From a virus: a DNA stretch of 64,000 nt. Both the position numbers and the translations under genes were made by a program. The stretch lies in the IMG/VR virus record IMGVR_UViG_3300045988_056900; one strand, given 5' to 3'. The notes beneath the pieces were generated by a model. That model searched no databases and was not told the DNA's origin. It worked only from the letters and a program-made list of their open reading frames with translations. Position 1 is the stretch's first letter. Each line of letters begins with the position of its first letter. Positions 1,020-32,076 of the stretch are shown piece after piece.

Positions 1020-1400
1020 TTATGTTTTTAGTTTGTCGATTAACTCATCGACTTGTTTCTACGTATGTACAACATAGAACGCTGTTTTAGGTTCATGTGT
1101 GTACAAATAATAGTTAAATAACTTTTCACGTAAAGGCCATGCCTCATTTGGAAAGCCTTTACATTCAATCACAAAACCTTTACCAACAAAGTCTGGTAAA
1201 TAGGTCATTGCTCTATATTTTTTGTTGTTAAAAGTAAAAGCTGGAAGTAGCTCATATCTATGCATTTCATAATCTGCTAGAATATTTGCTTCTTTCAGCT
1301 TTTTATATGTATATGTTTCAAGTTTACTTCGAAATTTAATTCCGTCATATTCGTTAGGAGTTGCATTTCGAACTCTACCTTGTTTTTTCTATTTCTTCAT
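1020..1400 (-). CDS. DUF1064-like PD-(D/E)xK nuclease (RecU/resolvase-like), readable only with TAG as sense
   Basis: ATG 1398-1400, in-frame TAG at 1389-1391 (codon 4) and 1059-1061, TAA at 1020-1022. Reads MKK[TAG]KKQGRVRNATPNEYDGIKFRSKLE...YLPDF...IECKG. There is no in-frame ATG between the first TAG and the conserved N-terminal motif. Confidence 0.55.
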
Positions 1401-2352
1401 ATAACCATTTTTTTACTTTCTCAAATCCATTTGCTTTAATAGCGTCAGATATATCTTTTGCCTTAAATTTCTTATGGACTAACATACCTTCTAAACCTGT
1501 TTTAAGGCTTATTTTACGGAGATATTTTACTCCAGCTTCATCTCTATCAAATAGTATAATAATACGTTTAAATCGCTTCTTTAACTGTTCTAGAATCTTA
1601 TTAGGTATAAATGTAGATTCAGATGAAGGTGAAATGGCTGGAATACCCATTTCATATAAACACATAACATCTTTCATACTTTTAGTAATAATTAAGATGT
1701 CACCTGTTTTTGGAAGCTGCTTAAATCCCTGAATATCTAATTCAGTAAGATTATTACGCCACTTTGTATATTTGTCTGCTAAAGGTTTATATATCTTAAA
1801 ATGATTGTATACCTTATAAGCATACATAGGATTATCTTCTTTATAAATGCTTTTTACTATGCCATTACATAGGTAGTACTTTATACTACTTACTCCAAAT
1901 TTTCTTAGAGTTTCTACCGTAATATTAAACTGCTTCCAGTAATTGATGTCAGTTTCAGTAAATTCCTGACGTACAACACCAATTACTGTTTCAGTTGACG
2001 GTATATATTGCTTAGAGCTAACGAGTTGCGTATCGTTAGTAATTTTAAGTCTTTCAACAATATCTTTAAGTATATCCGAGTAATTAGTTATACCTGTATA
2101 AAGTTCTATAAACTTTATTACATTTCCACACTGACCTGTTCCATGATCTTTAAACAACAACTGTTTTGTTTTTCTACTATAAAAGCATCCAAACGAAGGA
2201 GTTTTGTCTTTTCTCAATGGAGAATTATAGATCATTCCTACTTTAAAATTACCTATATACGCTGCATATATATCATACTCACTTACTCTAGAAAGAATCC
2301 AATCTAGAGTGATATTAAATGTATCTTTTACTTTTGTTGTATCGTAAATCAT
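1375..2352 (-). CDS. DNA primase (TOPRIM domain)
   Basis: 325-aa ORF. TOPRIM-like ILIITKSMKDV...ISPSSE and IILFDRDEAG (DxD). Ends in TAG. Confidence 0.75.
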   Translation of the reverse strand: MIYDTTKVKDTFNITLDWILSRVSEYDIYAAYIGNFKVGMIYNSPLRKDKTPSFGCFYSRKTKQLLFKDHGTGQCGNVIKFIELYTGITNYSDILKDIVERLKITNDTQLVSSKQYIPSTETVIGVVRQEFTETDINYWKQFNITVETLRKFGVSSIKYYLCNGIVKSIYKEDNPMYAYKVYNHFKIYKPLADKYTKWRNNLTELDIQGFKQLPKTGDILIITKSMKDVMCLYEMGIPAISPSSESTFIPNKILEQLKKRFKRIIILFDRDEAGVKYLRKISLKTGLEGMLVHKKFKAKDISDAIKANGFEKVKKWLYEEIEKTR

Positions 2353-4432: not shown

Positions 4433-5413
4433 TTAATTGTTATTACTAAACGAAATCTTCTTCGTAGGTTCTTCTTCCCTTATAGTCTCAATTAAATTAT
4501 TGTATTTTAGATCGTTATCAAACTCAAGTATAGCGCACTCTCCAGCATCCCTATTCTTTAGGATATGAAGATAGACTTTATTCTTAACTAGTAAACGATT
4601 CGGTCCATACTGTTGTATATTGAGTAGTTCCGGTCTATGAATACATATAACATAATCAGATGCATGGAATATAGTATCCGCAGAAGAAATGTCACTACGC
4701 ATTGGGTAATGCATAGATGGATTGTTAATCCTATCAGGAGCTTCAATGTTTCGATTCATCTGTGATAACTGAATTATAGTAGTATTAGGGTACTTTTTAA
4801 CCTTAATAAACAGTTTCTGTAAATCGGAAATCACTTTCAGTGCAGATTCTTGACCTTCTACAAGTAAAGTATGATCAAGGATAATAATAAATTTCTTACC
4901 CTTTGCATAGTTCTCGTAAAAATAATCAATAGTAGAAGCTATTTCTCCAACCGTCCCAGGTGTATCAACATAATATATCTGGTATGATTTTATTTGTTGA
5001 GACGCTGTCTCAACTTGCGCCAATGTGTCATCGTTTAATTCCTCGTTAGCGCTATATAGCTGTGCAGTAGTTTGCCTTAACTTACTACTTAATTTTCTAC
5101 CTACCTGCCTTGAACTTAACATCTCAAATGAGAAGTTAAGGATAACTACATCCTGTTCAGGATTTAGATCTATTAAATCATTTTCAAGTGTATTAACAAA
5201 TGATGATTTACCACTACCAGATATACCTACTATAGTATATATCGTATTAGGTTCAATTCCACCCATACAGTGTTTATTGAACTTATTCCACCTTGTTCTT
5301 AAAGATTGAATCTCATGATTCTTTCTTTGTTTTATATATTCTACTGCTTCTTTAGCTGCAATAGATATATGGCGGAAGGTAAGCGTATTAGTAGAGTTCT
5401 GTTCCATAATCAT
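4433..5413 (-). CDS. DnaB-like replicative helicase (RecA-like C-terminal domain)
   Basis: Walker A GISGSGKSS, Walker B IIILDHTLL, and the SQMNR motif (cf. DnaB LSQLNR). Confidence 0.85.
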   Translation of the reverse strand: MIMEQNSTNTLTFRHISIAAKEAVEYIKQRKNHEIQSLRTRWNKFNKHCMGGIEPNTIYTIVGISGSGKSSFVNTLENDLIDLNPEQDVVILNFSFEMLSSRQVGRKLSSKLRQTTAQLYSANEELNDDTLAQVETASQQIKSYQIYYVDTPGTVGEIASTIDYFYENYAKGKKFIIILDHTLLVEGQESALKVISDLQKLFIKVKKYPNTTIIQLSQMNRNIEAPDRINNPSMHYPMRSDISSADTIFHASDYVICIHRPELLNIQQYGPNRLLVKNKVYLHILKNRDAGECAILEFDNDLKYNNLIETIREEEPTKKISFSNNN

Positions 5414-5954
5414 TACTAATTATTGGTTCTTCTACTTTCATTTGTTCCTCGTATGTCTCCCACTCATGTTGAGTGAGCCATTTCCACATAGTTTTCATAT
5501 AACCGATTTTACCAGTAATCATTTTATTATCTATCTCATAAGATAAACATTTCATGATGTGCTGATGCATTGCTTTGCTTTTGCCAATTATTCGATTATA
5601 TTCCTTCCTACATTTGTTCACATTTGCCCTTAAAAAACCTTTGGTTCCGTCAGGTCTTATAACATAAACTGGAAATAGGTCATAGAATTCATCAAACATA
5701 GATTTATCTTCTTTAAGAAGTTCTTCTAGTTTTTCTGTTTTCTTTATGACTGTGGTATTGTCTACAGTGCTGGTAGCAATTAGACCACGAGACTCTAACT
5801 CTTGTATCTCTTCTTCATTAACTAGGCTGAGAAGTTTCTGAATGTCTTGATTGATGTTTTTGATATCACTCAATACAAGCGTTAGGAATACTAACTGATT
5901 AATAGATAAGTTTTCAATCCTATCAAGGATTGAGGTGTCTATTTCTAAAATCAT
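5388..5954 (-). CDS. hypothetical replication-module protein
   Basis: 188-aa ORF between the polymerase and the helicase. No motif recognised with confidence. Confidence 0.6.
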   Translation of the reverse strand: MILEIDTSILDRIENLSINQLVFLTLVLSDIKNINQDIQKLLSLVNEEEIQELESRGLIATSTVDNTTVIKKTEKLEELLKEDKSMFDEFYDLFPVYVIRPDGTKGFLRANVNKCRKEYNRIIGKSKAMHQHIMKCLSYEIDNKMITGKIGYMKTMWKWLTQHEWETYEEQMKVEEPIISNDYGTELY

Positions 5955-6009
5955 ATTCTCATATATTATACGAGCATACGGTATTTGAAATATATCTGAT
6001 AAGCCTTTG

Positions 6010-7989
6010 TTAATCCCATAGGCTCATTTGTAACGGTTTTAATTCACGGATTATCTTATAGGCTTCCATAATGTAATACCTATAATTAATCTTTCTCTCT
6101 TCAATTGGTTTATCGTCTAAGTAATTTAATAAAGTAACACCAGATGCAGTAAGCATATTCTGATACTGTTTTTCTTTTGCAACAAATATCTTTTTACCTA
6201 CATATGGTTCATCATATTCTATAATTTCACCTTCTTTGTGTCCTGTTGGTTTCCATTTCCATAAATAGGCACCATTAGTACTTGCATAGAAACGATTAGT
6301 CCTTTGTTGTTCTTTATTATTATACTCAACATGCCATTGTTTACCAGTCTTTTCAGCCATTAGAAAGTCTCTAATGTCTTGGCAACCTTTTATAGTTTCT
6401 TCTACTGGTACTCCGTTCTTAAAAAAGTTTATTACTGCTTTCGGTATGATCTTCGGAGTTAGACCTTTCCCTAATTTCACAGTAGTAATAAACATACCCT
6501 TTTCTTTTACTTTATCATCTTCAGTAATAGCAAAGTAGTCATTTATAGCATATTGATACATAGCCTTAAAACGTTCTTCTTCTAAAGTAAGTTTAGTAAG
6601 TTGTTCCCATTCTCTGCATACTTTGTTTACACTATCATATACAGATTTTTTAAGTAATACAAACAGACCATCTGTATTAGCTTGGACGATTCGACATCCT
6701 AATTGGGTTAGTTTTTCAGCTAGCATTAGTAATAGTAACTGCCCATTTATACGTATTTGCATTACTGCAAATGGACTATAACAGAAATTATGTGGATTCT
6801 GTAAGTTACCTGATAATCCATTGAGAGCAAGCTTTAAGGTTTCGTTTTTAACCTTATTGCCATTGTGTTTAGCTTCGATGCGCTCATCTTTAATTTGTCT
6901 ATATACTTCTAGAAATTCAGGTCCTAAATGTTTAGGATAGAACCCATATTCTATTAGCATACTTGGATATAGTGATGCAACATCTATATCAATGAGCATT
7001 TCATCTTCTTTTGGTATAACTATTTCAGGATCATTCACTGAATGAATTCCTCCAACTCCTACAGAATATCTTAATCCTTCAAATATGAATTTATTTTCAT
7101 ATCCTTTTCTTCCTGGAGATACTATTTGACTTTTCATATCATCTAGTACTTTTTGAAGTATAGGACTATCATACTTAATAAATGGTAGGATTACCTTATT
7201 TAAAGGTATTACATCCATTGGAGATCTTAAATCTTTAATATCATACCAGGTTTGACCTGTCTTTTCAAGATATTTCTGAGTTAAAATCTTCATTCCAATG
7301 TTTACTCCGTCTTTACTAAGTACTCTTACTCCGTATTCATCTTCAATAGCTAACCTTAAATCTACATCTTTTTTACATCTATTGAGTAACTCTTCAGTAG
7401 AATTAACATCATTAATATTATACTCAATCATTGAATCTATTTGATTTTCAGGTAAATCTGCCTGCCAATCTGCAACAAATTCCTGTACATTTCTGTACTG
7501 CATTGTTACTTGAATTTCTTTCAAACCTACTCTTAACTTATTGCTATAAAGCATAGTAAGAATATCAAACGAATCAAAACAAATCATATACTTCCACTTA
7601 CTCCAAGCTCTAATATCGTCTTCACTTGAAGTAGTAATTACTTTACTTAAATTAAATATAGATCTACATATATCTCTATATCCTTTGTATTTCATTACAA
7701 CATAATAATCTATTATATAATTTATAATAGGATTATCATAATGAAGATTATTATAACCACAAAATAATTTATTAGTATTTAACTGAATTTTTGTAGTATA
7801 TAAGTCTCCGAAAGTATAGTCTGTATTAACTGTATGAAAGAAATTGACTAATTCATCTAATTGATTTCTTCTGCAAGATATTTCAAATTTATGCAATTCA
7901 CCTGTTTCTGTATTTTTTACAGTACAATGGAAAACATTGGGGAATACCTCAATATCATATACATAAACAATCTTATCTCGTATAATCAT
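6010..7989 (-). CDS. family B DNA polymerase
   Basis: 659 aa. Exo I DIEVFPN, Exo II NNLHYDNPI, Exo III YNINDVNS, motif A DVASLYPS, motif B KLALNGLSG, motif C QANTDGLFV. Confidence 0.95.
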   Translation of the reverse strand: MIIRDKIVYVYDIEVFPNVFHCTVKNTETGELHKFEISCRRNQLDELVNFFHTVNTDYTFGDLYTTKIQLNTNKLFCGYNNLHYDNPIINYIIDYYVVMKYKGYRDICRSIFNLSKVITTSSEDDIRAWSKWKYMICFDSFDILTMLYSNKLRVGLKEIQVTMQYRNVQEFVADWQADLPENQIDSMIEYNINDVNSTEELLNRCKKDVDLRLAIEDEYGVRVLSKDGVNIGMKILTQKYLEKTGQTWYDIKDLRSPMDVIPLNKVILPFIKYDSPILQKVLDDMKSQIVSPGRKGYENKFIFEGLRYSVGVGGIHSVNDPEIVIPKEDEMLIDIDVASLYPSMLIEYGFYPKHLGPEFLEVYRQIKDERIEAKHNGNKVKNETLKLALNGLSGNLQNPHNFCYSPFAVMQIRINGQLLLLMLAEKLTQLGCRIVQANTDGLFVLLKKSVYDSVNKVCREWEQLTKLTLEEERFKAMYQYAINDYFAITEDDKVKEKGMFITTVKLGKGLTPKIIPKAVINFFKNGVPVEETIKGCQDIRDFLMAEKTGKQWHVEYNNKEQQRTNRFYASTNGAYLWKWKPTGHKEGEIIEYDEPYVGKKIFVAKEKQYQNMLTASGVTLLNYLDDKPIEERKINYRYYIMEAYKIIRELKPLQMSLWD

Positions 7990-8008: not shown

Positions 8009-8066
8009 AGTCTGTGGAGGGAATCGAACCCTCATTTAACAGTTTTTCCATTTAAACTACACAGAC
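8009..8066 (-). ncRNA. tRNA-like module A lacking an anticodon arm (58 nt)
   Basis: Minus strand reads GTCTGTG-TA-GTTT-AAATGGAA-AAAC-TGTTAAAT-GAGGG-TTCGATT-CCCTC-CACAGAC-T. It has a perfect 7-bp acceptor stem, a D-arm with GG, and a canonical T-arm. Only 8 nt occupy the place of the anticodon arm. Confidence 0.55.
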
Positions 8067-10718: not shown

Positions 10719-11351
10719 TTATTCTGTTGTAGTAGTTTCAACATGCACGTTTACTTCTACATCACTTCCAATACCACACTGCCGCATATAATCAGTATAA
10801 ATGCGTTTGTTAGCATCGGAATAACCTCGAACTGTCTTAGACAGATTCAAGCAGTGACGAGCAAAGTTCTCGTAGTGAGTAATAGCACCCATGTTAGCTT
10901 CCTCAACTAATTTGTCGAGATTCGGCAAATCTTCAGCTGAGAAAAACATCGGACTAGCTCCGCTCTTACCAAGGCGGTCAATTGCTTCCGTAACGTTAGC
11001 CCGGGTAGCTTTGCTGAAATCCGGTTCAGCTATTTCGAACATCAAAGGTTCAACACCAGGAATGTCCTTGTTGATAGCAATCTTCGGCCGTTGATCAAGA
11101 TCCTTAGCGACAATACTTACACTCATGATATCAATAGCTTTAATAATATAAGCTTTGATCTCATTGCGGAAAGTATTGATGCCATTCATGACGTCTTCCT
11201 TGTACTTAGGATCTGGATTTACTGCGATAATAGTAAATAACTGCTTACCGAAGTAAGGACCATATTTCTGTGCCACTTGCCGGTTACGTGCTAAGATTTG
11301 TGCAGCTGCGTTAGGAATCTGCGGTGCACTGTTGTTATTCAAATTTTCCAT
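10719..11351 (-). CDS. hypothetical protein
   Basis: 210-aa ORF. Confidence 0.7.
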   Translation of the reverse strand: MENLNNNSAPQIPNAAAQILARNRQVAQKYGPYFGKQLFTIIAVNPDPKYKEDVMNGINTFRNEIKAYIIKAIDIMSVSIVAKDLDQRPKIAINKDIPGVEPLMFEIAEPDFSKATRANVTEAIDRLGKSGASPMFFSAEDLPNLDKLVEEANMGAITHYENFARHCLNLSKTVRGYSDANKRIYTDYMRQCGIGSDVEVNVHVETTTTE

Positions 11352-13499
11352 AAAAAATGTTCCCTTCTTGAGTCCGCATTTGATATACCAATACAGATCA
11401 TTTTTTAGTTTTTAAGTTAATAATAAGTTAATGCTCTCCACTGTTCGATTATTTTATAGCATTACAATAATGGTAATGGTGAATTCAATCACATAATCTA
11501 CTAGGTATTAAAATAATAAATGTTAATTTATTTGAAAATATCTTCTGATAAATTCTCTGATAATTTCTGTTAATTCTGATATGTTTATCGTCCCGTTTCG
11601 ACGGTTAAGATTCAACTTTTTCGATGCTTAACGCACCTCTCACCGTTATTTTATATCGCGATTAGATGCAATATAAAAGACATAGATCATTGACTAATGG
11701 TAAGTCTACCTAGTATTTCCGGATTATCGAAATTCATAGAATTACGGTCGTTTATCTAACGTTACCAACTCACAAGCCCATTACTTATAGTATGGCCCAC
11801 TTGTACCATGCATAGGATTTGTTGTTTATTCTGCTCGAACACGAGGATTTCCACCTCTCATCGTCTCCTTGTTGCTCAATTGTTATTACTATTGAGTCGA
11901 AATGTACTACGCCCTTTAATCTACCGAGACAGGGTGATAGGCGACAGGTTATTAACGAATCAGCGTTCTCTTTACATATATACTTGCAATATATACTTTA
12001 GGAGTTTCTAATGTCAGCGATGACGGTTGGCAGTCTGGGGTGGATCATACTCCTTATCTGACTACTTTACAACAGTAGTTTGCTATCTCTGTACTCGCCA
12101 TTGAACTTCCCAATTTGGTAAAGATTAATAATGTTAACAATTCACTTAGAACAGATTTAACTAGGCCGGTTCTATTCGGCATTAACTTTCAGATGCAGTA
12201 AAGTAACATCATCTGTTACAGTCTTACCTCTCTGGTTCCAGGGTTCTAAGCTGGAGCAGCTTGGCTCTTACTCATTAATTTATTGTTTTTGACCACTACT
12301 AATATCTCCTACTCTGGAATGAGTGTGATAATCTAGCAATGCACCTTTACATATCTTAAAAGGTATAAGCTCTGCTGTTTTTTACGAGGAGTTTTCTAAG
12401 CTTCTCCTTAGTATTATTTATCATTATAATCACACTTGCTAAAGGTGTGTAACGATTAGAATCAGGGTTATTGCGCCCTCAAACCGCTTAGACACTCTTG
12501 GTCTATTCATTCCTCATTCAATTATACTCACACGAACGAATAAGCACGTGAGTCACTTTAGACTTGAAAGACGGTATCAATCTCATATACCTCATCCCTT
12601 ATACGTAAATTCTTTTGCGGCACGCTAGTTACGGTAGCGCACAGGATTGGCTCCTGCTCCCTGGTAATCAGTCTATTTTCACTATAATTTTAACATAGTT
12701 ACTTAGGATCATTGCATGTCCAGCCTTCATATCTTTACTTTGTATAAGTATGTACCATAACACGGTTATCCTTACATTAGTATCAGTAATTACTCCCTTT
12801 ATATTATGAACCAATTATCATAAAAACACTAGAGTTAGCCTATTTTTCCAATCAGGACGCATAGTTGCGTTTTTGTATGAAGCGAGGTTGGAACCCGCTT
12901 GTTGCGTTAGTCAGCCATAATGTATTTTTCGATAATCCTTTTCCAAGGGATTATCCAAGAACCCTTTGTCCTTGTTTCAGCATCGTGTTCATATTCCTTC
13001 TTGAGTCACATCTTGATTGACGCATACGAATATAGAGATTTCGTTCTCTTTTTGAGGATTAAGGATTTCATCTTTTGTAGTTTTTATTTGCTTATTGCTA
13101 CGAATTCATCTCCTCGGTTTTGAATTAATTTGTAACTAGGGTATCTTCTTGTAGCTCCTATATTACGGGTTCTTCACTCTTAATATCACCAGACGGTTCT
13201 CATATTAACAGCGCAGGCTATTCACCCTCTCCTGCTTTCTTATACCTTTTTCACCAGTATAAGTTATTATCCTACCTTTTGAGTATCTCACAGTGTTAGC
13301 TGCTACGAAGCATCTCATAACTACTTCTTACATATTCTCGGATTCTGTCTTTTTTCGGGCTATGTGTAAATGGACACAAACTCCCTGACGCAGTAGTACT
13401 TAAAAACTTCCTTCTGTGACTGCCGGAGTGATTTACGCTATAGTTTTACTCCTCTCGAACTATGATATAATTATAGTATTTATATAGCGGCTATTATCA
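11352..13499. other. 2.15-kb ORF-free block, candidate large non-coding RNA locus
   Basis: No ORF of 60 aa or more on the operon strand. Where I checked by hand (13140-13499), stops occur in all three minus-strand frames even when TAG is ignored. The block is flanked by complete co-directional genes and looks richer in G+C than the flanks. It has many short hairpins, for example CCGT-TTCG-ACGG at 11593-11604 and AAGCTG-GAG-CAGCTT at 12248-12262. Confidence 0.5.
11544..11582. repeat. four tandem TCTGATAA-type repeats
   Basis: TCTGATAA (11544), TCTGATAA (11556), TCTGTTAA (11566), TCTGATAT (11575). Same motif as the array at 3933-3961. Confidence 0.55.
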
Positions 13500-13925
13500 T
13501 TAACTATTTTCCGCTGAGGATTTATCTTCTCCTGTAATTTCTGACTCTGGTTTTACAAGAAATATGTCTCCAGAAGATAAGTTGATGTTTGCAACCACCT
13601 TCTTACCCCGGCATATATCAACTATGCCATTTTTTATATCATTACTACTGATATAATCAATTGGATCCATACGTCCTGGATCAAAACCATCCAAGTGCAC
13701 GCATATACTACTTACAGACGAGCGTAAGTACTGTTCTACGAATAAGATGTTACTTATACTAGCTTTCGCTTGTACCTGTATCATATTAGAACTTTCTCCG
13801 GCTACTATAAAGTAACCGGTTTGATCTACTACCAAATCTAAATTACGCCTAGCATCTTTGCTATTTCGTATAATACGTGATAGTCGCATCATACTATTAA
13901 GCATAATAAGATTCTTCTTACTCAT
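13500..13925 (-). CDS. hypothetical protein
   Basis: 141-aa ORF. Confidence 0.65.
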   Translation of the reverse strand: MSKKNLIMLNSMMRLSRIIRNSKDARRNLDLVVDQTGYFIVAGESSNMIQVQAKASISNILFVEQYLRSSVSSICVHLDGFDPGRMDPIDYISSNDIKNGIVDICRGKKVVANINLSSGDIFLVKPESEITGEDKSSAENS

Positions 13926-14319
13926 TTTGAGATTCTTTAGTAAAAGGAGAAAGTGGCTTTACATCCTCCGGTAAATTAGCTATACTGCGTACCTTTGGAA
14001 ATCCTGTATTTACTTCTTTTACTTTAGTTCTCCACTTAACTACTGGTTTTAATTCGCCAATAGTTGTCACATTCACAATTGCGTCTGCTGTTCCTTTTAC
14101 GGATACTTCTTGAGTATTAACATCATAAGATACTTCTATAGTATCTACATTACTCACAGACTTTGCTTCCTTATTAGAGTGCATCATAGACATCAACTCT
14201 AAATATGAAGGTATTACAGGTTGTTGTGCCTGCACGGGTTCAACTGTACTAAGTATATTATAGCCAACAAATATGCTAGCAATAAATAAACCTACAGCTG
14301 ACAAAATTCTACTATTCAT
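13918..14319 (-). CDS. hypothetical secreted or membrane-anchored protein
   Basis: 133-aa ORF with a hydrophobic N-terminus, ILSAVGLFIASIFVGYNIL. Confidence 0.65.
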   Translation of the reverse strand: MNSRILSAVGLFIASIFVGYNILSTVEPVQAQQPVIPSYLELMSMMHSNKEAKSVSNVDTIEVSYDVNTQEVSVKGTADAIVNVTTIGELKPVVKWRTKVKEVNTGFPKVRSIANLPEDVKPLSPFTKESQNE

Positions 14320-14386
14320 ATTGATTACGAATTAGTGAACAGTCTCTTAAACTTATATACAATACTCCACCAATTATGGAACCGGC

Positions 14387-15925
14387 TTAGCTTTTTTTTT
14401 CTTCAGCTGCAGCCTCTTCTTTCTTGGTTTCCGGATATTCACCTACAAGTACAGGAAGTGGACCTTCAAATTCGGCAATCTTGTCCATAGGTGAACGATA
14501 GTAGTTGATGATCTTACCAACAGCAAAACGCAGTTGCTCATTAGTAGGAGGAATCTTTCCAGGGTAATAGTTAGCACGAACAAGAGAGATAACCTTTCTA
14601 GCACTATCGCGCGCCATTTTGATTTCTGCCAATTGTTCATCAGTTGCTCCTTCAGGAACAGAACATGTGTAGTCATGCATCAATTTGTCAACATAATCCA
14701 CGCCAATTACTCCCATTGTTGCTTGAATAGCTTTGTCATCTGCCGGATTTTCAATCTTCTCGGTTTTGATAACATTACCATTAGCATCAATTTTGTCTTC
14801 CAAGTTATATCGGAAGTTTTCCTGGATGAATGTACGAACGATAAGTACAACTTCATCATCTGTAACAGTAGGTACAGCGCCATGAACAATGCAATGTGCA
14901 CTTACCGGCGAGTTTTCCTTCTTGGTATACAGATATACGGCACGTCCGATTCCTTTCATCAAACCAGCTACAGGTACAAGATGGAAAATCTCATTGATCC
15001 ATTCGTCTATTCGACGATTGTCAATCTTGAGCTTTTCATCAGTAGTACTAGCATTGTTGATACAAAGTTTACGATACCATTCAATGGTGTCAATTAAACT
15101 AATTACAATGTTACGATCTTTACGTAACAGATATTCCAAAGCACTACAGATCTTTTCATGATCTGAACCTACTTTTTCAATATCGGTTTCTGGAACTTCA
15201 AGTTTAGCCAGTTTAGGATCCTTCAGTTCTTCAGGAATAATAGTTTCCTGTGGTCCAAAAGGAATTGCTAACTGACCGTCTGTAGCTCCAGGAAGAGCAC
15301 GCGGTGATGCAAGTTTCACACCGAACATAGTAGCCATTTCTTGCAACGGCATAATCTGTTCAGGAGACACTATCAACTGAAGTTTACCTTCAGCCTGCAT
15401 ACCGATCATTTCTTGCTGAACACCGAGCATTCCAAGGAACCATACAGCATTAATCGCTTGATTAATAGCATTGTATTGTTCAGGGAAGTTCTTCTTCAAC
15501 TCTTCATTGTTAGTGAATCGTTGATGTCCAACAAATGAAAGCATAGCTTTAGCATCTGTAGAACTTGTAGAAGAACCAGTCGGAGCACCGATAGACTTAG
15601 CAAGTGTTTTCACTGCTTCAGCCGGATCTACTTCTTCAGCAATAACTGTAGGAGTCTTATCCTTCTTTGGCTTTGGCTGTTGTGCAGCACCTTTCTGGGC
15701 GGGCTGTTTGTCAGTCTTAGCCTGAGTCTGCGCTTTTTCCTCTTTCTTAGGTTGAGCAGCAGCCGGCTTTTCAGTTGCTGCTGGTGCAGCTACTTGCTGA
15801 GTTGTTTCAGCACTTCCTTTCTCGGTTTTAGTTACTTTTGCAGTGTTACCTGCTTTAGCTGTTTCTGCAGGTTTTGCTGCAGTACTTGCAGCTGCTTGAG
15901 CTGCTTTGTTTTTCTTAGACGACAT
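14387..15925 (-). CDS. hypothetical protein with a ~100-aa A/K/P/Q/E-rich low-complexity N-terminus
   Basis: 512-aa ORF. Codon third positions look G/C-richer than in neighbours. It is preceded by the conserved leader AAACATTATCAAA-ATG. Confidence 0.8.
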   Translation of the reverse strand: MSSKKNKAAQAAASTAAKPAETAKAGNTAKVTKTEKGSAETTQQVAAPAATEKPAAAQPKKEEKAQTQAKTDKQPAQKGAAQQPKPKKDKTPTVIAEEVDPAEAVKTLAKSIGAPTGSSTSSTDAKAMLSFVGHQRFTNNEELKKNFPEQYNAINQAINAVWFLGMLGVQQEMIGMQAEGKLQLIVSPEQIMPLQEMATMFGVKLASPRALPGATDGQLAIPFGPQETIIPEELKDPKLAKLEVPETDIEKVGSDHEKICSALEYLLRKDRNIVISLIDTIEWYRKLCINNASTTDEKLKIDNRRIDEWINEIFHLVPVAGLMKGIGRAVYLYTKKENSPVSAHCIVHGAVPTVTDDEVVLIVRTFIQENFRYNLEDKIDANGNVIKTEKIENPADDKAIQATMGVIGVDYVDKLMHDYTCSVPEGATDEQLAEIKMARDSARKVISLVRANYYPGKIPPTNEQLRFAVGKIINYYRSPMDKIAEFEGPLPVLVGEYPETKKEEAAAEEKKS

Positions 15926-17899: not shown

Positions 17900-18084
17900 G
17901 GTTTATTGATTTCTTTTTTAAAGTTATCTACTATACCAGATACTTGATCCATAGTTAGTTGTGGATATTTATCCATTACTTTACCTATTGCTTCAATATC
18001 TGATTTGCTTTCGTTCAACATTTTCTTGAACTCTCTCTCTTCTTGTCTGGAGTCAAACCAAACCCACCAAGGTACTACGCGCAT
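17896..18084 (-). CDS. hypothetical protein
   Basis: 62-aa ORF with an ATGA overlap to the next gene. Confidence 0.5.
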   Translation of the reverse strand: MRVVPWWVWFDSRQEEREFKKMLNESKSDIEAIGKVMDKYPQLTMDQVSGIVDNFKKEINKP

Positions 18085-18353
18085 TGATATTCGTATTCTT
18101 TAATTTTGTTATTCAATAGCTCCCATTTTTCCTTGTCGATATCAGTTGCTTCTACTAAGTAGATGATATCACAAGATGCTCTAAATACACCACGAATGTA
18201 GTTCATTCCCTCTTTATAATGATATTTGTTCTTATAAATTCTGGGAACATTTGCATGTAGACGAGTTATTAACTCTGTCTTCATTTTCAGTTCTGTTGCA
18301 GCTTTCTCCCATGATTCTGGTAAGTTCTGCCTAATAAAGTTCATTAATCCCAT
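18075..18353 (-). CDS. hypothetical protein (TAG-terminated)
   Basis: 92-aa ORF. The stop codon is TAG at 18075-18077. Confidence 0.6.
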   Translation of the reverse strand: MGLMNFIRQNLPESWEKAATELKMKTELITRLHANVPRIYKNKYHYKEGMNYIRGVFRASCDIIYLVEATDIDKEKWELLNNKIKEYEYQCA

Positions 18354-18485: not shown

Positions 18486-18707
18486 GGCGACTGTCACTAT
18501 TTCTAGCGCTAAAATCTATTTCACAACCCCATCATTAGTAACAGTTTCTCTTTAAATAAAGAGTTGTTAACCAGGATACTGTATGCTCCCCTGGGGATAT
18601 CTCACGCTGCTAAGCGTGTATAATCCATTACATAACTTGTATTGCCAGTTATCTGCTTATTGACCTATTCTACTTCACATTGTCGCAGTCAAATGCCTAG
18701 ATGCCCC
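18486..18707 (-). ncRNA. tmRNA-like coding piece: 5' acceptor strand, D-loop-like motif and tag reading frame ending LAA-stop
   Basis: The minus strand from 18707 reads GGGGCAT-CTAGGCATTTGAC-TGCGAC. Positions 18646-18602 read GGC AAT ACA AGT TAT GTA ATG GAT TAT ACA CGC TTA GCA GCG TGA, that is GNTSYVMDYTRLAA*. ACAGTC at 18494-18489 can pair with GACTGT of the upstream acceptor piece. The 3' boundary is a guess. Confidence 0.4.
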
Positions 18708-18863
18708 ATTTAAAGTAGTACTCTTACAAAATTTAACTTATAGTTTGAGTACTACTCCCGATCTTCCTATCGCTGTTAATGAAAAAACTCTTAGAGAGAA
18801 ATCGAAAATTAGCGTAAGATTTCTATACGGGCCTCTTATTATTCTTGCTTATTCCATTTTTTG

Positions 18864-18920
18864 TGGAGCATGAGGGAGTCGAACCCTCGTCCTAACGACT
18901 GATTCATAGACCTAACAGTC
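18864..18920 (-). ncRNA. tmRNA-like acceptor piece: hairpin, GGAC, T-arm, 3' acceptor strand and discriminator A
   Basis: Minus strand reads GACTG-(14 nt)-CAGTC-GTTA-GGAC-GAGGG-TTCGACT-CCCTC-ATGCTCC-A, followed by CAA. ATGCTCC is complementary to GGGGCAT at 18707-18701, with G3:U70. Confidence 0.4.
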
Positions 18921-19551
18921 AATGAGTTTATAAGATTAATTGAAGTATAACTCGCGTACAGAATTAAGCCATTCTTCCTGCTTTATTATTTAACACAGTT
19001 CACAGCACTCTCTACAGGTGAGCCTTCGTTATGTTATACAATATCCCTGCTATTTTTACAATTAATCTTATATTGTGACTAGGTAGGCGACCAAACCTAC
19101 CTAGCCTATGGTCTTTTACGATATTTAAAGTATTCTCATACTATTAATGCCTTGATAACCTGTCTTGGAAGTATAGAATACTTTTCAGCTTCTATACGGC
19201 ATGATGTCTAGCATCGCACTATTCCAAAAATGCCGACTTGATATCATAAGAATGCTATTGCATAATATACTCAAAGAGTATAGAATCTGTATTTATATAT
19301 TGCGCAATTTATATATACATCCTCATGATCTTAGGCACATGATCAGTGGCACGTTGTCATAATGTCCTACTCTGGCATCGGTTGTATTACTACACCTTAC
19401 ACTTGTTGTATGCATGTCAATTCATGCATGAGCTGCATCTTCTGGTACTTAGCACATAAAATGTCATCACCACCTATTAGCTACTTTCTCTAGTTAGGTT
19501 ATATAGTCAGTATTTCTACTGCTAAAACACTATACCTGGACTATGCGCGGA

Positions 19552-20330: not shown

Positions 20331-20539
20331 ATTTTTGATAATTTGGTTTTAGAATTAAAAAAAGAACTGTTCTGTATATTCCTATCTCTTATTCTACAGA
20401 TAACCCCTATCCTTCTCTCCCTTTATCTGTAGATTTACAGATTGCCGTTGAATAGCCATTACATAGTAATATGTATTAGGGTTTTGGTATATTTACAGTT
20501 CTTTCGGGTTGATTGGAATCCACCATACTAACAATTTAA

Positions 20540-21737: not shown

Positions 21738-21986
21738 TTATTGATTAATTACTTTTATTTCTATTTCATACTCATCTAATTCTGCCTTAATATCATCAGT
21801 AGATGATTCAGACTGAATTTCAAAATATGGACATAATTGAACTTCTTCACTTGGTTTGCTTCTAGCTATAGCTTTTGCTACAGATATAGGCATACCTAAG
21901 ATTTTATTTAATGCTAACATATTAGCATAAAGATGACCAGTATGTAGAATCATACTAGTAATGTACCTTTTGGATTCCTTTTTCAT
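21738..21986 (-). CDS. hypothetical protein
   Basis: 82-aa ORF. Confidence 0.55.
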   Translation of the reverse strand: MKKESKRYITSMILHTGHLYANMLALNKILGMPISVAKAIARSKPSEEVQLCPYFEIQSESSTDDIKAELDEYEIEIKVINQ

Positions 21987-22464
21987 TTTTACATAGGCTT
22001 TAAAATTGTTAGTTAATAAATATGATGACGTCTGTATACAGCACTATATACAGAATAATTTACCGCAGTGCTACGGAGATTTGAGACTAATACTATAAAG
22101 CAATAGCGCTCTATTGCACATCTGTTATTAAAGAAATCATTTCCACATATTACTATGTTTAATTTAAACCCTCACATGTTTTAGGATTACTCCAGAGTAC
22201 AAGCAGAAAAGGCTGTCAAACCTAATCTTATCACTCACCTGATTTTAACGTCCGCACGATCGTAGTATTTGCAATTATCAGTACTAATTAGAGTAATTGC
22301 CACCCTTCTTCTCCCGCTTAAAAATACTACTTACGCCCCACAGGCTTGTCATCTTCTGAAGACTAGTCTATTCTCACGAACAAACTAGTTGTGTCGAAAT
22401 TTTTAAACCATTTCTATGCAAAATGCTTCAAAAAACTGTAATAACTTGTTTTAATTATTACTCT

Positions 22465-22923
22465 CTAACGCCTTAGAGAATCACGAGGATTCTTCACAGA
22501 ATCCATTGGGGTAATTATATCACGCTGAATAACTGCGCCTTTGAGTACATCTTTAAAATGCTCTTTGTTTGATTCATATATATAAACAATGTCACTATTC
22601 GACAATGATGTACCATGAGTCATAAGTATATCAATTAGAATAGCTTCAGGCATTGCTAAAAATATACTATCAATGCGCATTCCCTCTTTCACGTCTTCTC
22701 TAAATTTGAGAATTTCTTGTACCGTTGGTACATGTTCAACTGCTTTTGCAGTATCAATGCAAACTGATTCGTCTTCCGACGTAACAATCTTAGCAATAGG
22801 TTCATGACACAGAAACACTATTACTCCAGTAGCGATTGCTAATGCAATGACTACTAATATCGTCCAAAAGCATCCATTAGACGATTTTCTTACTACAGGA
22901 TATTGATTATCTTCCATACTCAA
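22465..22923 (-). CDS. membrane-anchored hypothetical protein (TAG-terminated)
   Basis: 152 aa. TM helix CFWTILVVIALAIATGVIVFL. Stop is TAG at 22465-22467. Confidence 0.65.
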   Translation of the reverse strand: MSMEDNQYPVVRKSSNGCFWTILVVIALAIATGVIVFLCHEPIAKIVTSEDESVCIDTAKAVEHVPTVQEILKFREDVKEGMRIDSIFLAMPEAILIDILMTHGTSLSNSDIVYIYESNKEHFKDVLKGAVIQRDIITPMDSVKNPRDSLRR

Positions 22924-24107: not shown

Positions 24108-24921
24108 ATATTATAATGTTTTAATTAGTAATCAAATAGAAATAAAGTAAGCGCATTATATCCGCCCTTATACATATGAATGCTATGCTATTCTCTTACT
24201 TTATAATTTGAGACTTCTTTATTGGTTACTTCTTGCTCAAGGAAGACCTCAACTATTTTATTTTTCTCTAGTTCCGCATTGTAATAGTTAACAGATGCGG
24301 CAACTTCATACTTAAAATGATACTTATTGTTCAGTTAGTATCAGACTGTCAAGCTCCGTACACCTTATTTCCGGATGAAACATTTTCTCTTTGCTTGCTT
24401 AGATTAGTTACTTTAAAGAGTTGCACATCACAGCGAACCTAACTGTGACCTCTTACCACGTGGATTATTTAACTATTAAATATCAATAATTTACTGTGCA
24501 TATAAGTTAAAGATAAATAATAATTAATTACTTTGACTCTGCATTGTCCACCGACTTGTCACGGCCTTCATTGGTTGCATTAAAGTAATAATATATGTGA
24601 AATCACACTATCCTCACAGACCGTGTAATTGTTAGTTTAATTTTTCAGAAAATCTCTTGCATTTTACACCTAAAACTCTATGAGCAGCAACTCACATCTA
24701 TTAGATAGTTTGCGCGCGTTTTATAATAGAGAAACCGGTGCCCTCAATGTCTTGGGAAGTTATTGAGTTTTTTGTTTATCAAATTATATTAGTTGTTATT
24801 CCTTTTCTTTTAAATAATAGTATATAATTATACATATTATGATTATTCCTCCTGCAAATTGTATCTGTGACCATTCCATATTAATGAAAGTTTCTATTTT
24901 AATTATGTGTTGTTATTGACA

Positions 24922-25674: not shown

Positions 25675-25947
25675 AATACATGTATTTTAATTGGTGAATA
25701 ATCGAAAAGCTATATATTGGTCTGAATGACTAAATAAAGGGCGAAGAAAAGGAAGGAAAAGAGTGAGGAGGTGTATAGTATATCGTTAGGAACATGACCG
25801 AACCCCAGTAACTACATTCTCAATTCTCCATTATTCTTTCCTCTTCATGCGTCCCCAATTCTTGGTAGGTGTGCTTGACTTGCCCCTGTGCGCAGCTTTG
25901 AGCTAGCTTATACAGGTTATATTATATAATCTATCACTTACTGTGTT

Positions 25948-26310: not shown

Positions 26311-26375
26311 AATTATATAATTTGATGTTAATAATCATAATAAAGGGCAGCCACTAAGGACTGCCCAAGACTAAT

Positions 26376-26585
26376 CTACCACAACCACAAGAATCTTGCT
26401 ATGCGGATGACTAGCCCACTGAAAGCTATACCTACTCCCCACCTCCATACTGTTAACCAAGCATGAAAGTCATATACTTCTCTTGCTACCATAATAACAG
26501 GAGTAATGCACATTACAAGAATGCCTAGGTTAATCAGTATAGTACCAGCATCTTTCAACTTCAACAGTTTTTCACTCTGTTTCAT
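26376..26585 (-). CDS. small two-TM membrane protein (TAG-terminated)
   Basis: ATG at 26583-26585 (the track start at 26591 is TTG). Stop is TAG. Confidence 0.55.
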   Translation of the reverse strand: MKQSEKLLKLKDAGTILINLGILVMCITPVIMVAREVYDFHAWLTVWRWGVGIAFSGLVIRIARFLWLW

Positions 26586-27691: not shown

Positions 27692-27724
27692 TACGTTATA
27701 GTTAGAAACTAAGTAAAAAAGAAT

Positions 27725-28075: not shown

Positions 28076-28108
28076 TATAACAATCTAATTAAATTTTTCA
28101 TAATGGAG

Positions 28109-28140
28109 AAGGCTCGACTTAGGTCGGGCTTTCTTTTTAT
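28109..28140 (+). terminator. Rho-independent terminator
   Basis: GCTCGAC-TTAG-GTCGGGC followed by TTTCTTTTTAT. Confidence 0.7.
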
Positions 28141-32001: not shown

Positions 32002-32076
32002 TGCCCTATGGTGTAATGGTTAGCACAGGAGGCTCTAACCCTCTTAGTCTGCGTTCGAGTCGTAGTAGGGCTACCA
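32002..32076 (+). tRNA. amber suppressor tRNA, anticodon CTA (reads TAG), tRNA-Gln-like
   Basis: Cloverleaf TGCCCTA-TG-GTGT-AATGGTTA-GCAC-A-GGAGG-CTCTAAC-CCTCT-TAGT-CTGCG-TTCGAGT-CGTAG-TAGGGCT-A-CCA. The anticodon is at 32035-32037. CCA is encoded. Confidence 0.85.

What the first reader, a model, noticed from the sequence alone, without database searches (positions are those of the whole stretch)
1020..1400. A replication-module nuclease needs TAG read-through at codon 4, while neighbouring early genes use TAG as their stop
The DUF1064-like nuclease lacks any in-frame ATG after the TAG at 1389-1391. Its conserved N-terminal motif (NEYDGIKFRSKLE) lies downstream of that TAG, and the only ATG is three codons upstream of it (MKK[TAG]KKQG...).

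Its apparent stop at 1059 is also TAG. Reading through adds a plausible helix, KQVDELIDKLKT, and ends at TAA 1020, just before the next gene.

In the same arm, four genes end in TAG: the primase (1375) and the genes at 18075, 22465 and 26376. TAG would therefore be a stop early in infection and a sense codon once the suppressor accumulates.
- This would delay production of a junction-resolving nuclease until packaging.
- It would also add C-terminal extensions to four early proteins late in infection (7 aa for the primase, about 20 aa for the 18075 product).
Basis: partly seen in the sequence, partly recalled or inferred. Interest (0 to 1): 0.65.

Follow-up and report, generated by a model that had tools for sequence, protein, structure and literature searches.

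The report
Amber-gated resolvase-like nuclease in crAss-like phage
In a gut crAss-like phage that reads the stop codon TAG as glutamine late in infection, one DNA-cutting enzyme among the otherwise TAG-free replication genes needs TAG read-through a few codons after its start, so it can probably be made only after the phage's suppressor tRNA appears.

Summary
The DUF1064 / PD-(D/E)XK nuclease gene (1400..1020, minus strand) has one usable start, ATG 1400-1398. It has TAG at codon 4 (1391-1389) and at codon 114 (1061-1059), and ends at TAA 1022-1020.

The window is a TAG-to-Gln recoded Buchavirus-like phage (Suoliviridae). It carries a tRNA(CUA) at 32002-32076.

In orthologues, codon 114 is CAG or CAA in 81 of 100 unique CDSs, and the tail after it is conserved and modelled as a confident helix. 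The gene is under strong purifying selection (dN/dS 0.05-0.18).

The nuclease is the only gene of the replication arm with true internal TAGs. Four neighbouring genes have 0 internal TAGs among about 1,480 Gln codons across related loci.

Of 103 unique orthologous CDSs, 93 carry a TAG within codons 2-10 of a disordered basic leader. Its position shifts between lineages.

The feature is not universal: two recoded relatives (cr4_1, cr130_1) lack it. A standard-code relative (cr50_1) uses CAA/CAG.

The primase and the 18075 gene do use TAG as a stop. The "extension" after 22465 runs into a Hatchet ribozyme.

Temporal gating is inferred and follows the published code-switch model. This is a new member of a known kind, of moderate interest.

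The parts
1020..1400 (-). DUF1064 / PD-(D/E)XK nuclease CDS (126 codons plus TAA), annotated 'Holliday junction resolvase' in RefSeq relatives. It reads through two in-frame TAGs.
   Evidence: The ORF under TAG=sense comes. Pfam PF06356 scores 43.9 bits and PHROG 190 gives 6.9e-15. The identical 126-aa model is annotated in NC_055896. dN/dS is 0.05-0.18.
1398..1400 (-). The only usable start codon (ATG) of the nuclease.
   Evidence: TAA 1415-1413 closes the frame 4 codons upstream. The ATG is conserved in all leader types, several of which have TAA/TGA 1-5 codons upstream.
1389..1391 (-). In-frame TAG at codon 4 (the '5' amber gate').
   Evidence: Of 103 unique orthologous CDSs, 93 have a TAG at codons 2-10.
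1368..1400 (-). Basic, disordered N-terminal leader (MKKqKKQGRVR) that precedes the conserved NATPNEYDGIKFRSKLE motif.
   Evidence: There are 37 leader peptide types, K/R/Q-rich and variable in length. The AlphaFold model of an 87%-identical orthologue has pLDDT below 50 for residues 1-13.
1158..1196 (-). Catalytic block P69-D70-F71 ... E79-C80-K81, the PD-(D/E)XK motif.
   Evidence: The columns are invariant and the motif is present in 107 of 107 unique CDSs. It aligns with the TYTPDF...VETKG block of T7 endonuclease I chain 3cae, though only as a weak hit (E = 0.38).
1059..1061 (-). In-frame TAG at codon 114, a Gln site that is polymorphic with CAG/CAA.
   Evidence: At the equivalent site, unique CDSs carry CAG 45, CAA 36, TAG 18, AAA 1. 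Relatives at 98% identity differ only TAG versus CAG.
1023..1058 (-). C-terminal helix KQVDELIDKLKT, encoded after the second TAG.
   Evidence: It is conserved in all orthologues, including distant ones. The model gives a helix at residues 118-129 with pLDDT above 90.
1375..2352 (-). DNA primase (Toprim plus Zn-ribbon). Its stop is TAG 1377-1375, and it overlaps the nuclease start by 26 nt.
   Evidence: Orthologues end in TAA/TGA at nearly the same position. There are no internal TAGs in 80 loci.
32002..32076 (+). Suppressor tRNA with anticodon CUA, placed directly upstream of the TAG-rich late arm.
   Evidence: ARAGORN and Rfam tRNA at 53.8 bits. The syntenic tRNA(CUA) is present in cr4_1 and cr130_1.
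18075..18353 (-). Early-arm gene that uses TAG (18077-18075) as a true stop.
   Evidence: cr56_1 has a hard stop at the aligned codon and cr4_1 has one a codon later.
22465..22917 (-). Early-arm gene ending in TAG 22467-22465. The sequence downstream runs into a ribozyme and is not a coding extension.
   Evidence: The downstream frame is not conserved in cr60_1 or cr56_1. A Hatchet ribozyme at 22237-22363 (minus strand) scores 99.8 bits.

Best explanation
**What it is.** The gene encodes a functional T7-endonuclease-I-like PD-(D/E)XK nuclease of family DUF1064, presumed to cleave branched DNA.

**How it is translated.** Translation starts at ATG 1400. Both UAG codons (4 and 114) are decoded as glutamine by the phage's own tRNA(CUA).

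**Why that delays it.** The rest of the leftward replication arm avoids in-frame TAG and can be translated by the unmodified host machinery. Ribosomes on the nuclease ORF would instead release a tripeptide (Met-Lys-Lys) until the suppressor tRNA has accumulated. That tRNA is encoded at the head of the TAG-rich late arm. The nuclease is thus a translationally late gene embedded in an early or middle module.

**Why placement matters.** With the TAG in the first few codons of a disordered leader, the pre-switch product is a harmless stub rather than a truncated nuclease.

**Likely rationale.** A branch-cutting enzyme is useful for debranching DNA before packaging. It is harmful to replication forks and recombination intermediates earlier in infection.

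**Shown.** The gene is intact and under constraint. TAG equals Gln at codon 114 and at one leader site. No other start is available. The nuclease is the only real internal-TAG exception in its arm. TAG is concentrated in the leader.

**Inferred.** The timing of suppressor accumulation, the delay itself, selection for the gate, and junction-resolving activity.
For: **The genome is recoded.**
- Coverage by long ORFs rises from 37.4 kb to 58.4 kb when TAG is read as sense.
- The arms are bimodal: TAG is 31% of Gln codons in the late arm.
- A tRNA(CUA) is present.

**TAG means Gln in this gene.**
- At the codon-114 site, unique CDSs have CAG 45, CAA 36, TAG 18.
- The leader site 5 codons before NATP alternates between TAG and CAA.

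**The gene is functional.**
- dN/dS is 0.05-0.18, and the PD...ExK motif is present in 107 of 107 unique CDSs.
- The C-terminal helix after codon 114 is conserved and modelled with confidence.

**Only one start is available.**
- The ATG is conserved, with in-frame TAA/TGA just upstream in several leader types. No ATG, GTG or TTG lies between the TAG and the conserved motif.
- Standard-code and TAG-free orthologues also begin at a Met followed by a basic leader.

**The nuclease is a specific exception.**
- The primase, the ATPase and two other neighbours have 0 internal TAGs among about 1,480 Gln codons across loci.
- Of roughly 30 minus-arm genes compared with three complete genomes, only the nuclease has true internal TAGs.
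- The MRE11-like and Cas4-like nucleases of the same arm are TAG-free.

**The TAG is biased to the 5' end and retained.**
- 93 of 103 unique CDSs carry a TAG at codons 2-10.
- Among unique CDSs, the leader has 95 TAG to 58 CAA/CAG, and the body has 30 to 210.
- At the level of distinct leader haplotypes, 69% of Gln codons are TAG, against 31% in late genes.
- Near-identical gene bodies carry the TAG at different leader codons.
- The same pattern appears in Uncouvirinae: cr115_1 at codon 10 and cr125_1 at codon 9.

**It is not a by-product of the primase overlap.** Clades with a 134-500 nt gap between the two genes keep the leader TAG.

**Published context.**
- The code-switch model, including an Agate homing endonuclease gated by TGA inside an early gene (10.1101/2021.08.26.457843).
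- Proteomic evidence for TAG to Q in crAss-like phages (PMC9523058).
- T4 endonuclease VII acts mainly in debranching at packaging and can cleave stalled forks (PMC3016281).
Against: - No expression data of any kind are available. The timing of the tRNA and of nuclease synthesis is inferred.
- The gate is dispensable in some recoded relatives. The cr4_1 type (8 unique CDSs) and cr130_1 have no TAG in the nuclease. cr6_1 and one IMG/VR variant (locus L100) have only a body TAG.
- The enrichment statistics are not corrected for phylogeny, and most loci come from one large metagenome collection.
- The leader is Lys-rich. AAG-to-TAG mutations in a weakly constrained segment could add TAGs without selection.
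- Junction-resolving activity is only annotation-level. The PF05367 (T7 endonuclease I) score is below its cut-off, and Foldseek found no PDB match at E <= 0.001.
Confidence: 0.6

Rival explanations
1. **Neutral tolerance.** The nuclease is needed, or transcribed, only late, for example from its own late promoter. TAG is then simply an allowed synonymous Gln codon in it, as in any late gene. The TAGs have no regulatory role. Their concentration in the leader reflects weak amino-acid constraint plus easy AAG-to-TAG mutation in a Lys-rich segment.
For: - Overall TAG share of Gln codons in the nuclease (at least 77 of 233) is close to the late-arm value of 31%.
- The codon-114 site flips freely between TAG, CAG and CAA among near-identical genomes.
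- Extra sporadic TAGs occur at codon 41 (cr60_1), codon 33 (cr6_1) and codon 123 (locus L017).
- The recoded genomes cr4_1 and cr130_1 do without any TAG in this gene.
Against: - Leader Gln codons are 62-69% TAG, against 12.5% in the body of the same gene and 31% in late genes.
- 35 of 38 leader haplotypes keep at least one TAG despite rapid leader turnover.
- Simple mutational input from AAA/AAG would give mostly CAA/CAG (inference).
- Even under this rival, translation still depends on the suppressor, so a delay would follow mechanistically.
Confidence: 0.3
2. **No read-through needed.** The nuclease is made either as a primase-nuclease fusion or from a non-canonical start downstream of the TAG. 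The fusion would arise by a +1 slip on the A6 run (1388-1383), which moves ribosomes from the primase frame into the nuclease frame just past the TAG.
For: In the window the primase 3' end overlaps the nuclease 5' end by 26 nt. The run G-AAAAAA-C lies between the nuclease TAG and the primase stop, and a +1 shift there would read ...EEIEK-QGRVRNATP (reading).
Against: - In most clades the primase ends in TAA/TGA 134-500 nt upstream. Sometimes another gene lies in between, yet the nuclease keeps its own ATG and leader TAG.
- No ATG, GTG or TTG lies between the TAG and the conserved motif in any leader type.
- The codon-114 TAG would still need read-through.
- An A6 run is short for efficient slippage (established knowledge).
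Confidence: 0.04
3. **Pseudogene or assembly error.** The TAGs are inactivating mutations or sequencing errors in a decaying gene.
For: Under the standard code the ORF is broken into a 3-codon stub and a fragment with no start.
Against: - The same TAG at codon 4 recurs across loci from many contigs and samples.
- dN/dS is 0.05-0.18 and the catalytic motif is intact in 107 of 107 unique CDSs. No TAA, TGA or frameshift occurs.
- TAG alternates only with Gln codons at codon 114.
Confidence: 0.01

Closest known systems
Genetic code 15 (TAG to Gln) recoding in crAss-like phages, with standard-code early/replication genes and TAG-rich late genes. This is the code-switch timing model of Ivanova 2014, Yutin 2021 (PMC7886860), Borges 2021/22 (10.1101/2021.08.26.457843) and Peters 2022 (PMC9523058).
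   Same: - A phage tRNA(CUA) is present.
- The two arms differ sharply in TAG use.
- TAG aligns with CAG/CAA in relatives.
- The proposed consequence is the same: TAG-bearing genes cannot be made before the suppressor is present.
   Different: - Those papers describe the crAss-like replication machinery as being in the standard code, and single out lysis and tail genes.
- Here one gene inside the replication arm is the systematic exception.
- Its TAG sits in the first 2-10 codons and changes position between lineages.
- None of the three of these papers searched here (Yutin, Borges, Peters; Ivanova 2014 was not read) nor a 2026 amber-reassigned Crassvirales preprint mentions the resolvase.
Group I intron homing endonuclease of TGA-recoded Agate phages, inserted in an early gene and enriched in in-frame TGA (Borges et al.).
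   Same: A nuclease ORF located in an early region carries recoded stops. These are proposed to block its production until late in infection.
   Different: - It uses TGA to Trp rather than TAG to Gln.
- It is a selfish mobile-element ORF, not a conserved core recombination or packaging enzyme.
- No 5'-proximal placement was reported for it.
Phage junction-resolving or debranching nucleases: T7 endonuclease I (gene 3, PF05367) and T4 endonuclease VII (gene 49).
   Same: - The presumed role is the same: cutting branched DNA before or during packaging (PMC3016281).
- The PD...E-x-K block aligns with that of T7 endonuclease I.
   Different: - The PF05367 score is below its cut-off (18.1 against 29.1 bits).
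- T4 endonuclease VII has an unrelated fold (established knowledge).
- Those enzymes are not known to be timed by stop-codon recoding (own knowledge).
- No activity has been shown for the crAss protein.
RefSeq annotation of NC_055896 (cr113_1, Buchavirus coli) and its relatives: 'Holliday junction resolvase' CDS.
   Same: The 126-aa gene model is identical and reads through both TAGs. The primase is also annotated through its TAG.
   Different: The annotation applies code 15 uniformly. It therefore extends the primase by 7 aa and does not flag the nuclease as the lone TAG-bearing gene of the replication arm.

Membership tests
DUF1064 (PF06356), PD-(D/E)XK clan | Match to the family HMM above the curated gathering score | tested here: met
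   The score is 43.9 bits against a cut-off of 24.7 (E = 3.8e-11), covering residues 16-98 and profile positions 9-100 of 117. All listed database homologues carry PF06356.
DUF1064 (PF06356), PD-(D/E)XK clan | Catalytic D ... (D/E)-x-K motif conserved | tested here: met
   P69-D70-F71 and E79-C80-K81 are invariant. The motif is present in 107 of 107 unique CDSs.
DUF1064 (PF06356), PD-(D/E)XK clan | Restriction-endonuclease-like alpha/beta fold | tested here: inconclusive
   The AlphaFold model has pLDDT 86.5. Foldseek against the PDB gave no hit at E <= 0.001. The top weak hits are mostly PD-(D/E)XK nucleases: Bax1, XisH, Cas4-family, VRR-NUC, BstYI, TnsA and Vsr.
Holliday junction resolvase (functional class) | Structure-specific cleavage of four-way or branched DNA | not testable with these tools
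   Only annotation-level support exists: PHROG 190 'Holliday junction resolvase' at 6.9e-15 and the RefSeq product name.
T7 endonuclease I family (PF05367) | Match above the gathering score | tested here: not met
   The score is 18.1 bits against a cut-off of 29.1. The PDB chain 3cae matches only at E = 0.38, although the catalytic block aligns.
TAG-to-Gln (code 15) recoded phage | Suppressor tRNA with anticodon CUA encoded by the phage | tested here: met
   The tRNA lies at 32002-32076 on the plus strand. It is called by ARAGORN and by Rfam tRNA at 53.8 bits.
TAG-to-Gln (code 15) recoded phage | Coding capacity is restored when TAG is read as sense, and TAG aligns with Gln codons in relatives | tested here: met
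   ORFs of at least 100 aa cover 37.4 kb under code 11 and 58.4 kb under code 15. The codon-114 site shows CAG 45, CAA 36 and TAG 18.
TAG-to-Gln (code 15) recoded phage | Peptide evidence for Gln at TAG | not testable with these tools
   This has been shown for other crAss-like phages by metaproteomics (PMC9523058), but not for this genome or this protein.
Recoded-stop-gated (translationally late) gene, in the sense of Borges et al. | In-frame recoded stops in a genome whose early genes avoid them | tested here: met
   The nuclease is the only minus-arm gene with true internal TAGs in the window and in cr60_1 and cr56_1. Neighbours have 0 among about 1,480 Gln codons.
Recoded-stop-gated (translationally late) gene, in the sense of Borges et al. 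| Preference for the recoded stop over CAG/CAA beyond the genome background | tested here: inconclusive
   Leader Gln codons are 69% TAG against a 31% background (binomial p = 2e-8) and against 12.5% in the body. The test is not corrected for phylogeny, and the gene as a whole is near background.
Recoded-stop-gated (translationally late) gene, in the sense of Borges et al. | Protein appears only after the suppressor is expressed | not testable with these tools
   No expression data are available.

The most novel reading that the evidence does not exclude
The 5' amber codon is an actively maintained but positionally mobile translational timer. Selection keeps at least one UAG within the first ~10 codons of the resolvase-like nuclease, while the codon itself relocates (codon 2 to 10) through Lys/Gln turnover in a disordered leader.

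This would uncouple the synthesis of one enzyme from its co-located replication genes. It would also make that gene a natural reporter of the moment of the genetic-code switch, embedded among the replication genes.

The same 5'-proximal placement may be a general design rule for late genes. TAG is 56% of Gln codons in the first 20 codons of late genes against 29% elsewhere (start-codon calls not validated).
Probability: 0.4. Interest if true: 0.65.

Novelty: new member of a known kind. Interest (0 to 1): 0.5.

Why it matters
The idea that stop-codon recoding times phage gene expression rests mostly on the correlation between late modules and recoded stops. Here a single gene inside an otherwise standard-code replication arm carries the recoded stop right after its start codon.

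That gives a clean, compact test case for the model:
- A short leader sequence can be fused to a reporter, with and without the phage tRNA(CUA).
- Its natural variants already exist: TAG at different codons, TAG-free in cr4_1 and cr130_1, and CAA/CAG in the standard-code cr50_1.

It also has a practical side. Gene callers that assign one code per genome block will either break this gene or over-extend its TAG-terminated neighbours. RefSeq extends the primase by 7 aa for this reason.

Tried and rejected
- **Downstream start.** The only in-frame ATG after the TAG is codon 46, which would delete the conserved N-terminal motif. No GTG or TTG lies in between. Rejected.
- **Primase-nuclease fusion by +1 slippage on the A6 run.** Clades with no overlap keep the ATG and the leader TAG. 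Rejected.
- **Leader TAG forced by the overlapping primase frame.** Rejected for the same reason.
- **Pseudogene.** Rejected by dN/dS and motif conservation.
- **Other apparent TAG-containing minus-arm ORFs.**
  - 21738-22121: the real start is M45, and the TAGs lie upstream of it.
  - 22318-22465: this region runs into a Hatchet ribozyme.
  - 25656-25817 and 26328-26585: no orthologues were found in the three complete genomes, so these remain unverified.
- **"TAG-free orthologues come only from standard-code genomes."** True for cr50_1 but false for cr4_1 and cr130_1.
- **Foldseek against the PDB** gave no significant match.
- **Steigviridae orthologues** (cr106_1, cr112_1, cr126_1, cr108_1) start at ATG (cr106_1) or GTG (the others) with short leaders and no TAG. 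They are uninformative about gating.
- **Rfam on the 2-kb ORF-free gap** at 11.35-13.5 kb found nothing.
Full report
**What is in the sequence**

On the minus strand the primase ORF (2352..1375) ends ...GAA ATA GAA AAA ACA AGG TAG. In the +1 frame the same bases read TAA(1415-1413) AAA AAT GGT TAT ATG(1400) AAG AAA TAG(1391-1389) AAA AAA CAA GGT AGA GTT CGA AAT GCA ACT CCT AAC GAA TAT GAC GGA... That translates as M-K-K-*-K-K-Q-G-R-V-R-N-A-T-P-N-E-Y-D-G.

The frame stays open to a second TAG at 1061-1059. It then continues for 12 codons (KQVDELIDKLKT) to TAA 1022-1020, which lies 11 nt before the next gene.

With TAG read as Gln, the 126-aa product matches Pfam DUF1064 above its cut-off (43.9 against 24.7 bits). 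The match begins at residue 16. The product also matches PHROG 190, 'Holliday junction resolvase'.

An in-frame ATG does exist downstream, at codon 46 (ORF 1265..1059). Starting there would remove the conserved N-terminal third of the domain.

**What genome this is**

- Reading TAG as sense raises the DNA covered by ORFs of at least 100 aa from 37.4 kb to 58.4 kb.
- The window has two divergent arms, which meet at the GC-skew minimum near 26 kb.
- The minus arm (1-26.6 kb) holds replication and other early-type genes and is almost free of in-frame TAG.
- The plus arm from 32.1 kb holds the terminase, portal, capsid, tail and giant virion proteins. There TAG makes up 31% of Gln codons.
- A tRNA with anticodon CUA sits at 32002-32076, directly upstream of the first TAG-rich gene.
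- The closest public genome is RefSeq NC_055896 (cr113_1, Buchavirus coli; Suoliviridae, Loutivirinae), at 97.7% nucleotide identity over this region.
- That record already annotates the same 126-aa 'Holliday junction resolvase', reading through both TAGs. It also annotates the primase through its TAG, at 332 aa.

**Is TAG really sense in this gene, and is the gene alive?**

I pooled four IMG/VR scans with the RefSeq regions. This gave 302 orthologous genes, 107 unique CDSs and 37 leader peptide types.

- At the codon-114 site, unique CDSs carry CAG (45), CAA (36), TAG (18) or AAA (1). Genomes 98% identical to the window differ there only as TAG versus CAG.
- The tail after that site is conserved even in distant subfamilies.
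- In an AlphaFold model of an 87%-identical orthologue (pLDDT 86.5), that tail is a confident C-terminal helix. The first ~13 residues are disordered.
- dN/dS against the window is 0.05-0.18, and the PD...E-x-K motif is intact in 107 of 107 unique CDSs.

The pseudogene and sequencing-error readings are excluded.

**The start**

- Every leader type begins at an ATG, and several have an in-frame TAA or TGA 1-5 codons upstream of it (shown).
- No type has an ATG, GTG or TTG between the TAG and the conserved (K/R)(V/I)(K/R)NAT motif.
- TAG-free orthologues also begin with Met plus a basic leader. Examples are cr50_1 (MKQRKTKRKKTTNQKVKNATP), cr124_1 and cr130_1.
- In the window's own clade the primase overlaps the nuclease start by 26 nt and ends in TAG.
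- In most other clades the primase ends in TAA or TGA 134-500 nt upstream, sometimes with an extra gene in between. The nuclease still keeps its ATG and its leader TAG.

This removes two alternatives. The TAG is not a by-product of the overlap. A +1 slip on the A6 run (1388-1383) producing a primase-nuclease fusion is not needed.

**How exceptional the gene is**

- Across the first 80 IMG/VR loci plus cr113_1 and the window, the primase, the AAA ATPase and two further neighbours have no internal TAG among about 1,480 Gln codons. The nuclease has at least 77 TAG among 233.
- I compared all minus-arm ORFs of the window with three complete relatives (cr60_1, cr56_1, cr4_1). The only TAGs inside alignments were of three kinds:
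  - those in the nuclease;
  - terminal codons, namely the primase, the 18075 gene, the 22465 gene, and one near-terminal TAG in cr56_1 (aligned to codon 130 of the 133-codon gene 13918-14319);
  - two TAGs upstream of the true start (M45) of gene 21738-22121.
- The other nucleases of the arm, one MRE11-like and one Cas4-like, have none.

**The 5' bias**

- Of 103 unique CDSs at 68% identity or more, 95 contain a TAG and 93 have one at codons 2-10.
- The first TAG falls at codon 4 in 31 CDSs, codon 6 in 23 and codon 7 in 30. Codons 2, 3, 5, 8, 9 and 10 account for the other nine.
- At DNA level most types reduce to two leader Gln sites. These are codon 4 and the site five codons before NATP. 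They toggle between TAG and CAA or AAG, and one variant has TAG at both.
- On a tree of the gene body the leader types are interleaved.
  - Near-identical bodies carry the TAG at different codons.
  - The TAG-less cr4_1 type is nested among TAG-bearing clades.
- Leader Gln codons are 95 TAG to 58 CAA/CAG, while the body has 30 to 210. At the haplotype level the leader is 69% TAG, against 31% in late genes.
- These tests are not phylogenetically corrected. The codon-114 site in the same sequences serves as an internal control: it flips often and is TAG in only 18%.
- Uncouvirinae show the same feature, with cr115_1 at codon 10 and cr125_1 at codon 9. The Bearivirinae genome cr6_1 has one body TAG. 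In all three the neighbouring genes are TAG-free.

**Limits of the pattern**

- cr50_1 (Boorivirinae) uses the standard code and has a TAG-free nuclease with CAA/CAG in the leader.
- cr4_1 (Buorbuivirus) and cr130_1 (Oafivirinae) are clearly recoded, with a tRNA(CUA) and TAG-rich late genes. Even so, their nucleases have no TAG.
- The 5' TAG is therefore common and recurrent, but it is not an obligatory companion of recoding.

**TAG as a stop in neighbouring genes**

- *Primase.* cr56_1 and cr4_1 end in TGA or TAA within a few codons of the window's TAG. The 7-aa 'extension' is only the out-of-frame reading of the nuclease 5' end.
- *18075 gene.* cr56_1 has a hard stop at the aligned codon, and cr4_1 has one a codon later.
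- *22465 gene.* The downstream frame is not conserved. The conserved sequence there belongs to a Hatchet ribozyme at 22237-22363.
- *26376 gene.* No orthologue was found in the three genomes.

The extensions show no sign of being functional.

**Mechanism**

The best-supported reading applies the published code-switch model to this gene. That model is set out in the Borges et al. preprint 10.1101/2021.08.26.457843, Yutin et al. PMC7886860 and Peters et al. PMC9523058.

Before the tRNA(CUA) accumulates, ribosomes entering the nuclease ORF terminate after Met-Lys-Lys. Afterwards both UAGs are read as Gln and the full enzyme is made.

Placing the UAG in the first codons of a disordered leader means the pre-switch product is an inert stub, not a truncated nuclease.

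A rationale can be drawn by analogy with T4. Endonuclease VII acts mainly in debranching DNA during packaging and can cleave stalled or regressed forks (PMC3016281).

The intact gene, TAG equals Gln, the single start and the specificity are shown. The timing, the selection for the gate and the junction-resolving activity are inferred. The main rival is neutral tolerance of TAG in a gene that is needed late anyway. Even then, synthesis would depend on the suppressor.

**Comparison with what is known**

Recoding in Suoliviridae, the two-domain TAG distribution and the temporal model are all known. The gene model itself is in RefSeq. Borges et al. describe a related case: a homing endonuclease inside an early gene of TGA-recoded Agate phages.

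What appears unreported in the papers I could search is the following:
- the resolvase-like nuclease is the systematic exception within the 'standard-code' replication module;
- its TAG is concentrated in the first ten codons;
- the position of that TAG moves while its presence persists.

I classify this as a new member of a known kind and rate interest at about 0.5.

The protein belongs to DUF1064, with the gathering score and the catalytic motif both met. It does not meet the T7 endonuclease I family threshold. Foldseek gave only weak PD-(D/E)XK-type hits. 'Holliday junction resolvase' therefore remains an annotation, not a demonstrated activity.

Noticed in passing
window 22237-22363 (-): Hatchet self-cleaving ribozyme (Rfam RF02678, 99.8 bits against a gathering score of 51), about 100 nt downstream of the TAG-terminated gene 22465-22917. 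It explains the conserved 'FVRIDqSSEDDKPVGRK' pseudo-translation seen in cr60_1 and cr56_1.
   Followed up: partly
window 24318-24529 (-), 20360-20516 (-), 19327-19428 (-): Three RAGATH-class structured RNAs lie in gaps of the early arm, all above their Rfam gathering scores: RAGATH-7 at 152 bits, RAGATH-9 at 129.5 bits and RAGATH-20 at 122 bits.
   Followed up: no
window 18511-18957 (-): ARAGORN calls a permuted tmRNA whose tag peptide, GNTSYVMDYTRLAA*, has a canonical ...LAA ending. The Rfam tmRNA_permuted family hits 18602-18923 at 40.3 bits (E = 2e-6), below its gathering score of 47. RefSeq relatives annotate a tmRNA at a comparable place in the early arm, including the standard-code cr50_1 as well as cr60_1 and cr130_1. 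This may be a phage-encoded tmRNA-like gene, which would be of interest in a phage that reads through stop codons.
   Followed up: partly
window 31891-31993 (+): A 103-nt tRNA-like element (Rfam tRNA, 35 bits) lies immediately upstream of the suppressor tRNA. ARAGORN does not call it. It has a GGGAGAG/CUCUCCC acceptor-like stem and a T-arm-like hairpin, so it may be a tRNA with an insertion or intron.
   Followed up: partly
window 8009-8066 (-): A short tRNA-like match (Rfam tRNA, 44.9 bits, 58 nt) lies in the gap after the DNA polymerase gene. cr4_1 has a tRNA-Arg(TCT) in the same arm, between the gene block that follows the DNA polymerase and the next block. ARAGORN does not call the window element.
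   Followed up: no
window late arm 32095-63599 (+); cr4_1 late genes (loci L087/L088): TAG is enriched among Gln codons near the 5' ends of late genes. In the window it is 56% in the first 20 codons against 29% elsewhere (p = 0.007). In cr4_1 it is 43% against 24% for the first 50 codons (p = 0.0005). This could mean that 5'-proximal amber gates are general. Possible over-extension of the called starts is a confound.
   Followed up: partly
window 11351-13500: A stretch of about 2.1 kb inside the early arm has no convincing ORF. A comparable gap in annotated CDSs is present in cr60_1 (5160-7303), cr56_1 (12585-14738) and cr4_1 (60881-63029). There is no Rfam match at E <= 0.1, and only short two-copy repeats. 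Its function is unknown.
   Followed up: partly
window 27171-31650 (+): In the block of small plus-strand genes upstream of the suppressor tRNA, a few genes carry internal TAGs at the same or nearly the same codon in cr60_1 and cr56_1 (28665-29057 at codon 85; 30804-31130 at codon 48, aligned to 46 in cr56_1; 29390-29617 at codon 4). Their timing relative to the tRNA is unclear.
   Followed up: no
locus L315 (cr112_1, MT774388) 2501-2986: The GenBank CDS for the DUF1064 nuclease starts at an internal Met. The conserved N-terminus is present upstream and begins at a GTG (VENRKIKNSTPEEY), as in cr126_1 and cr108_1. This looks like a missed non-ATG start in the annotation.
   Followed up: yes
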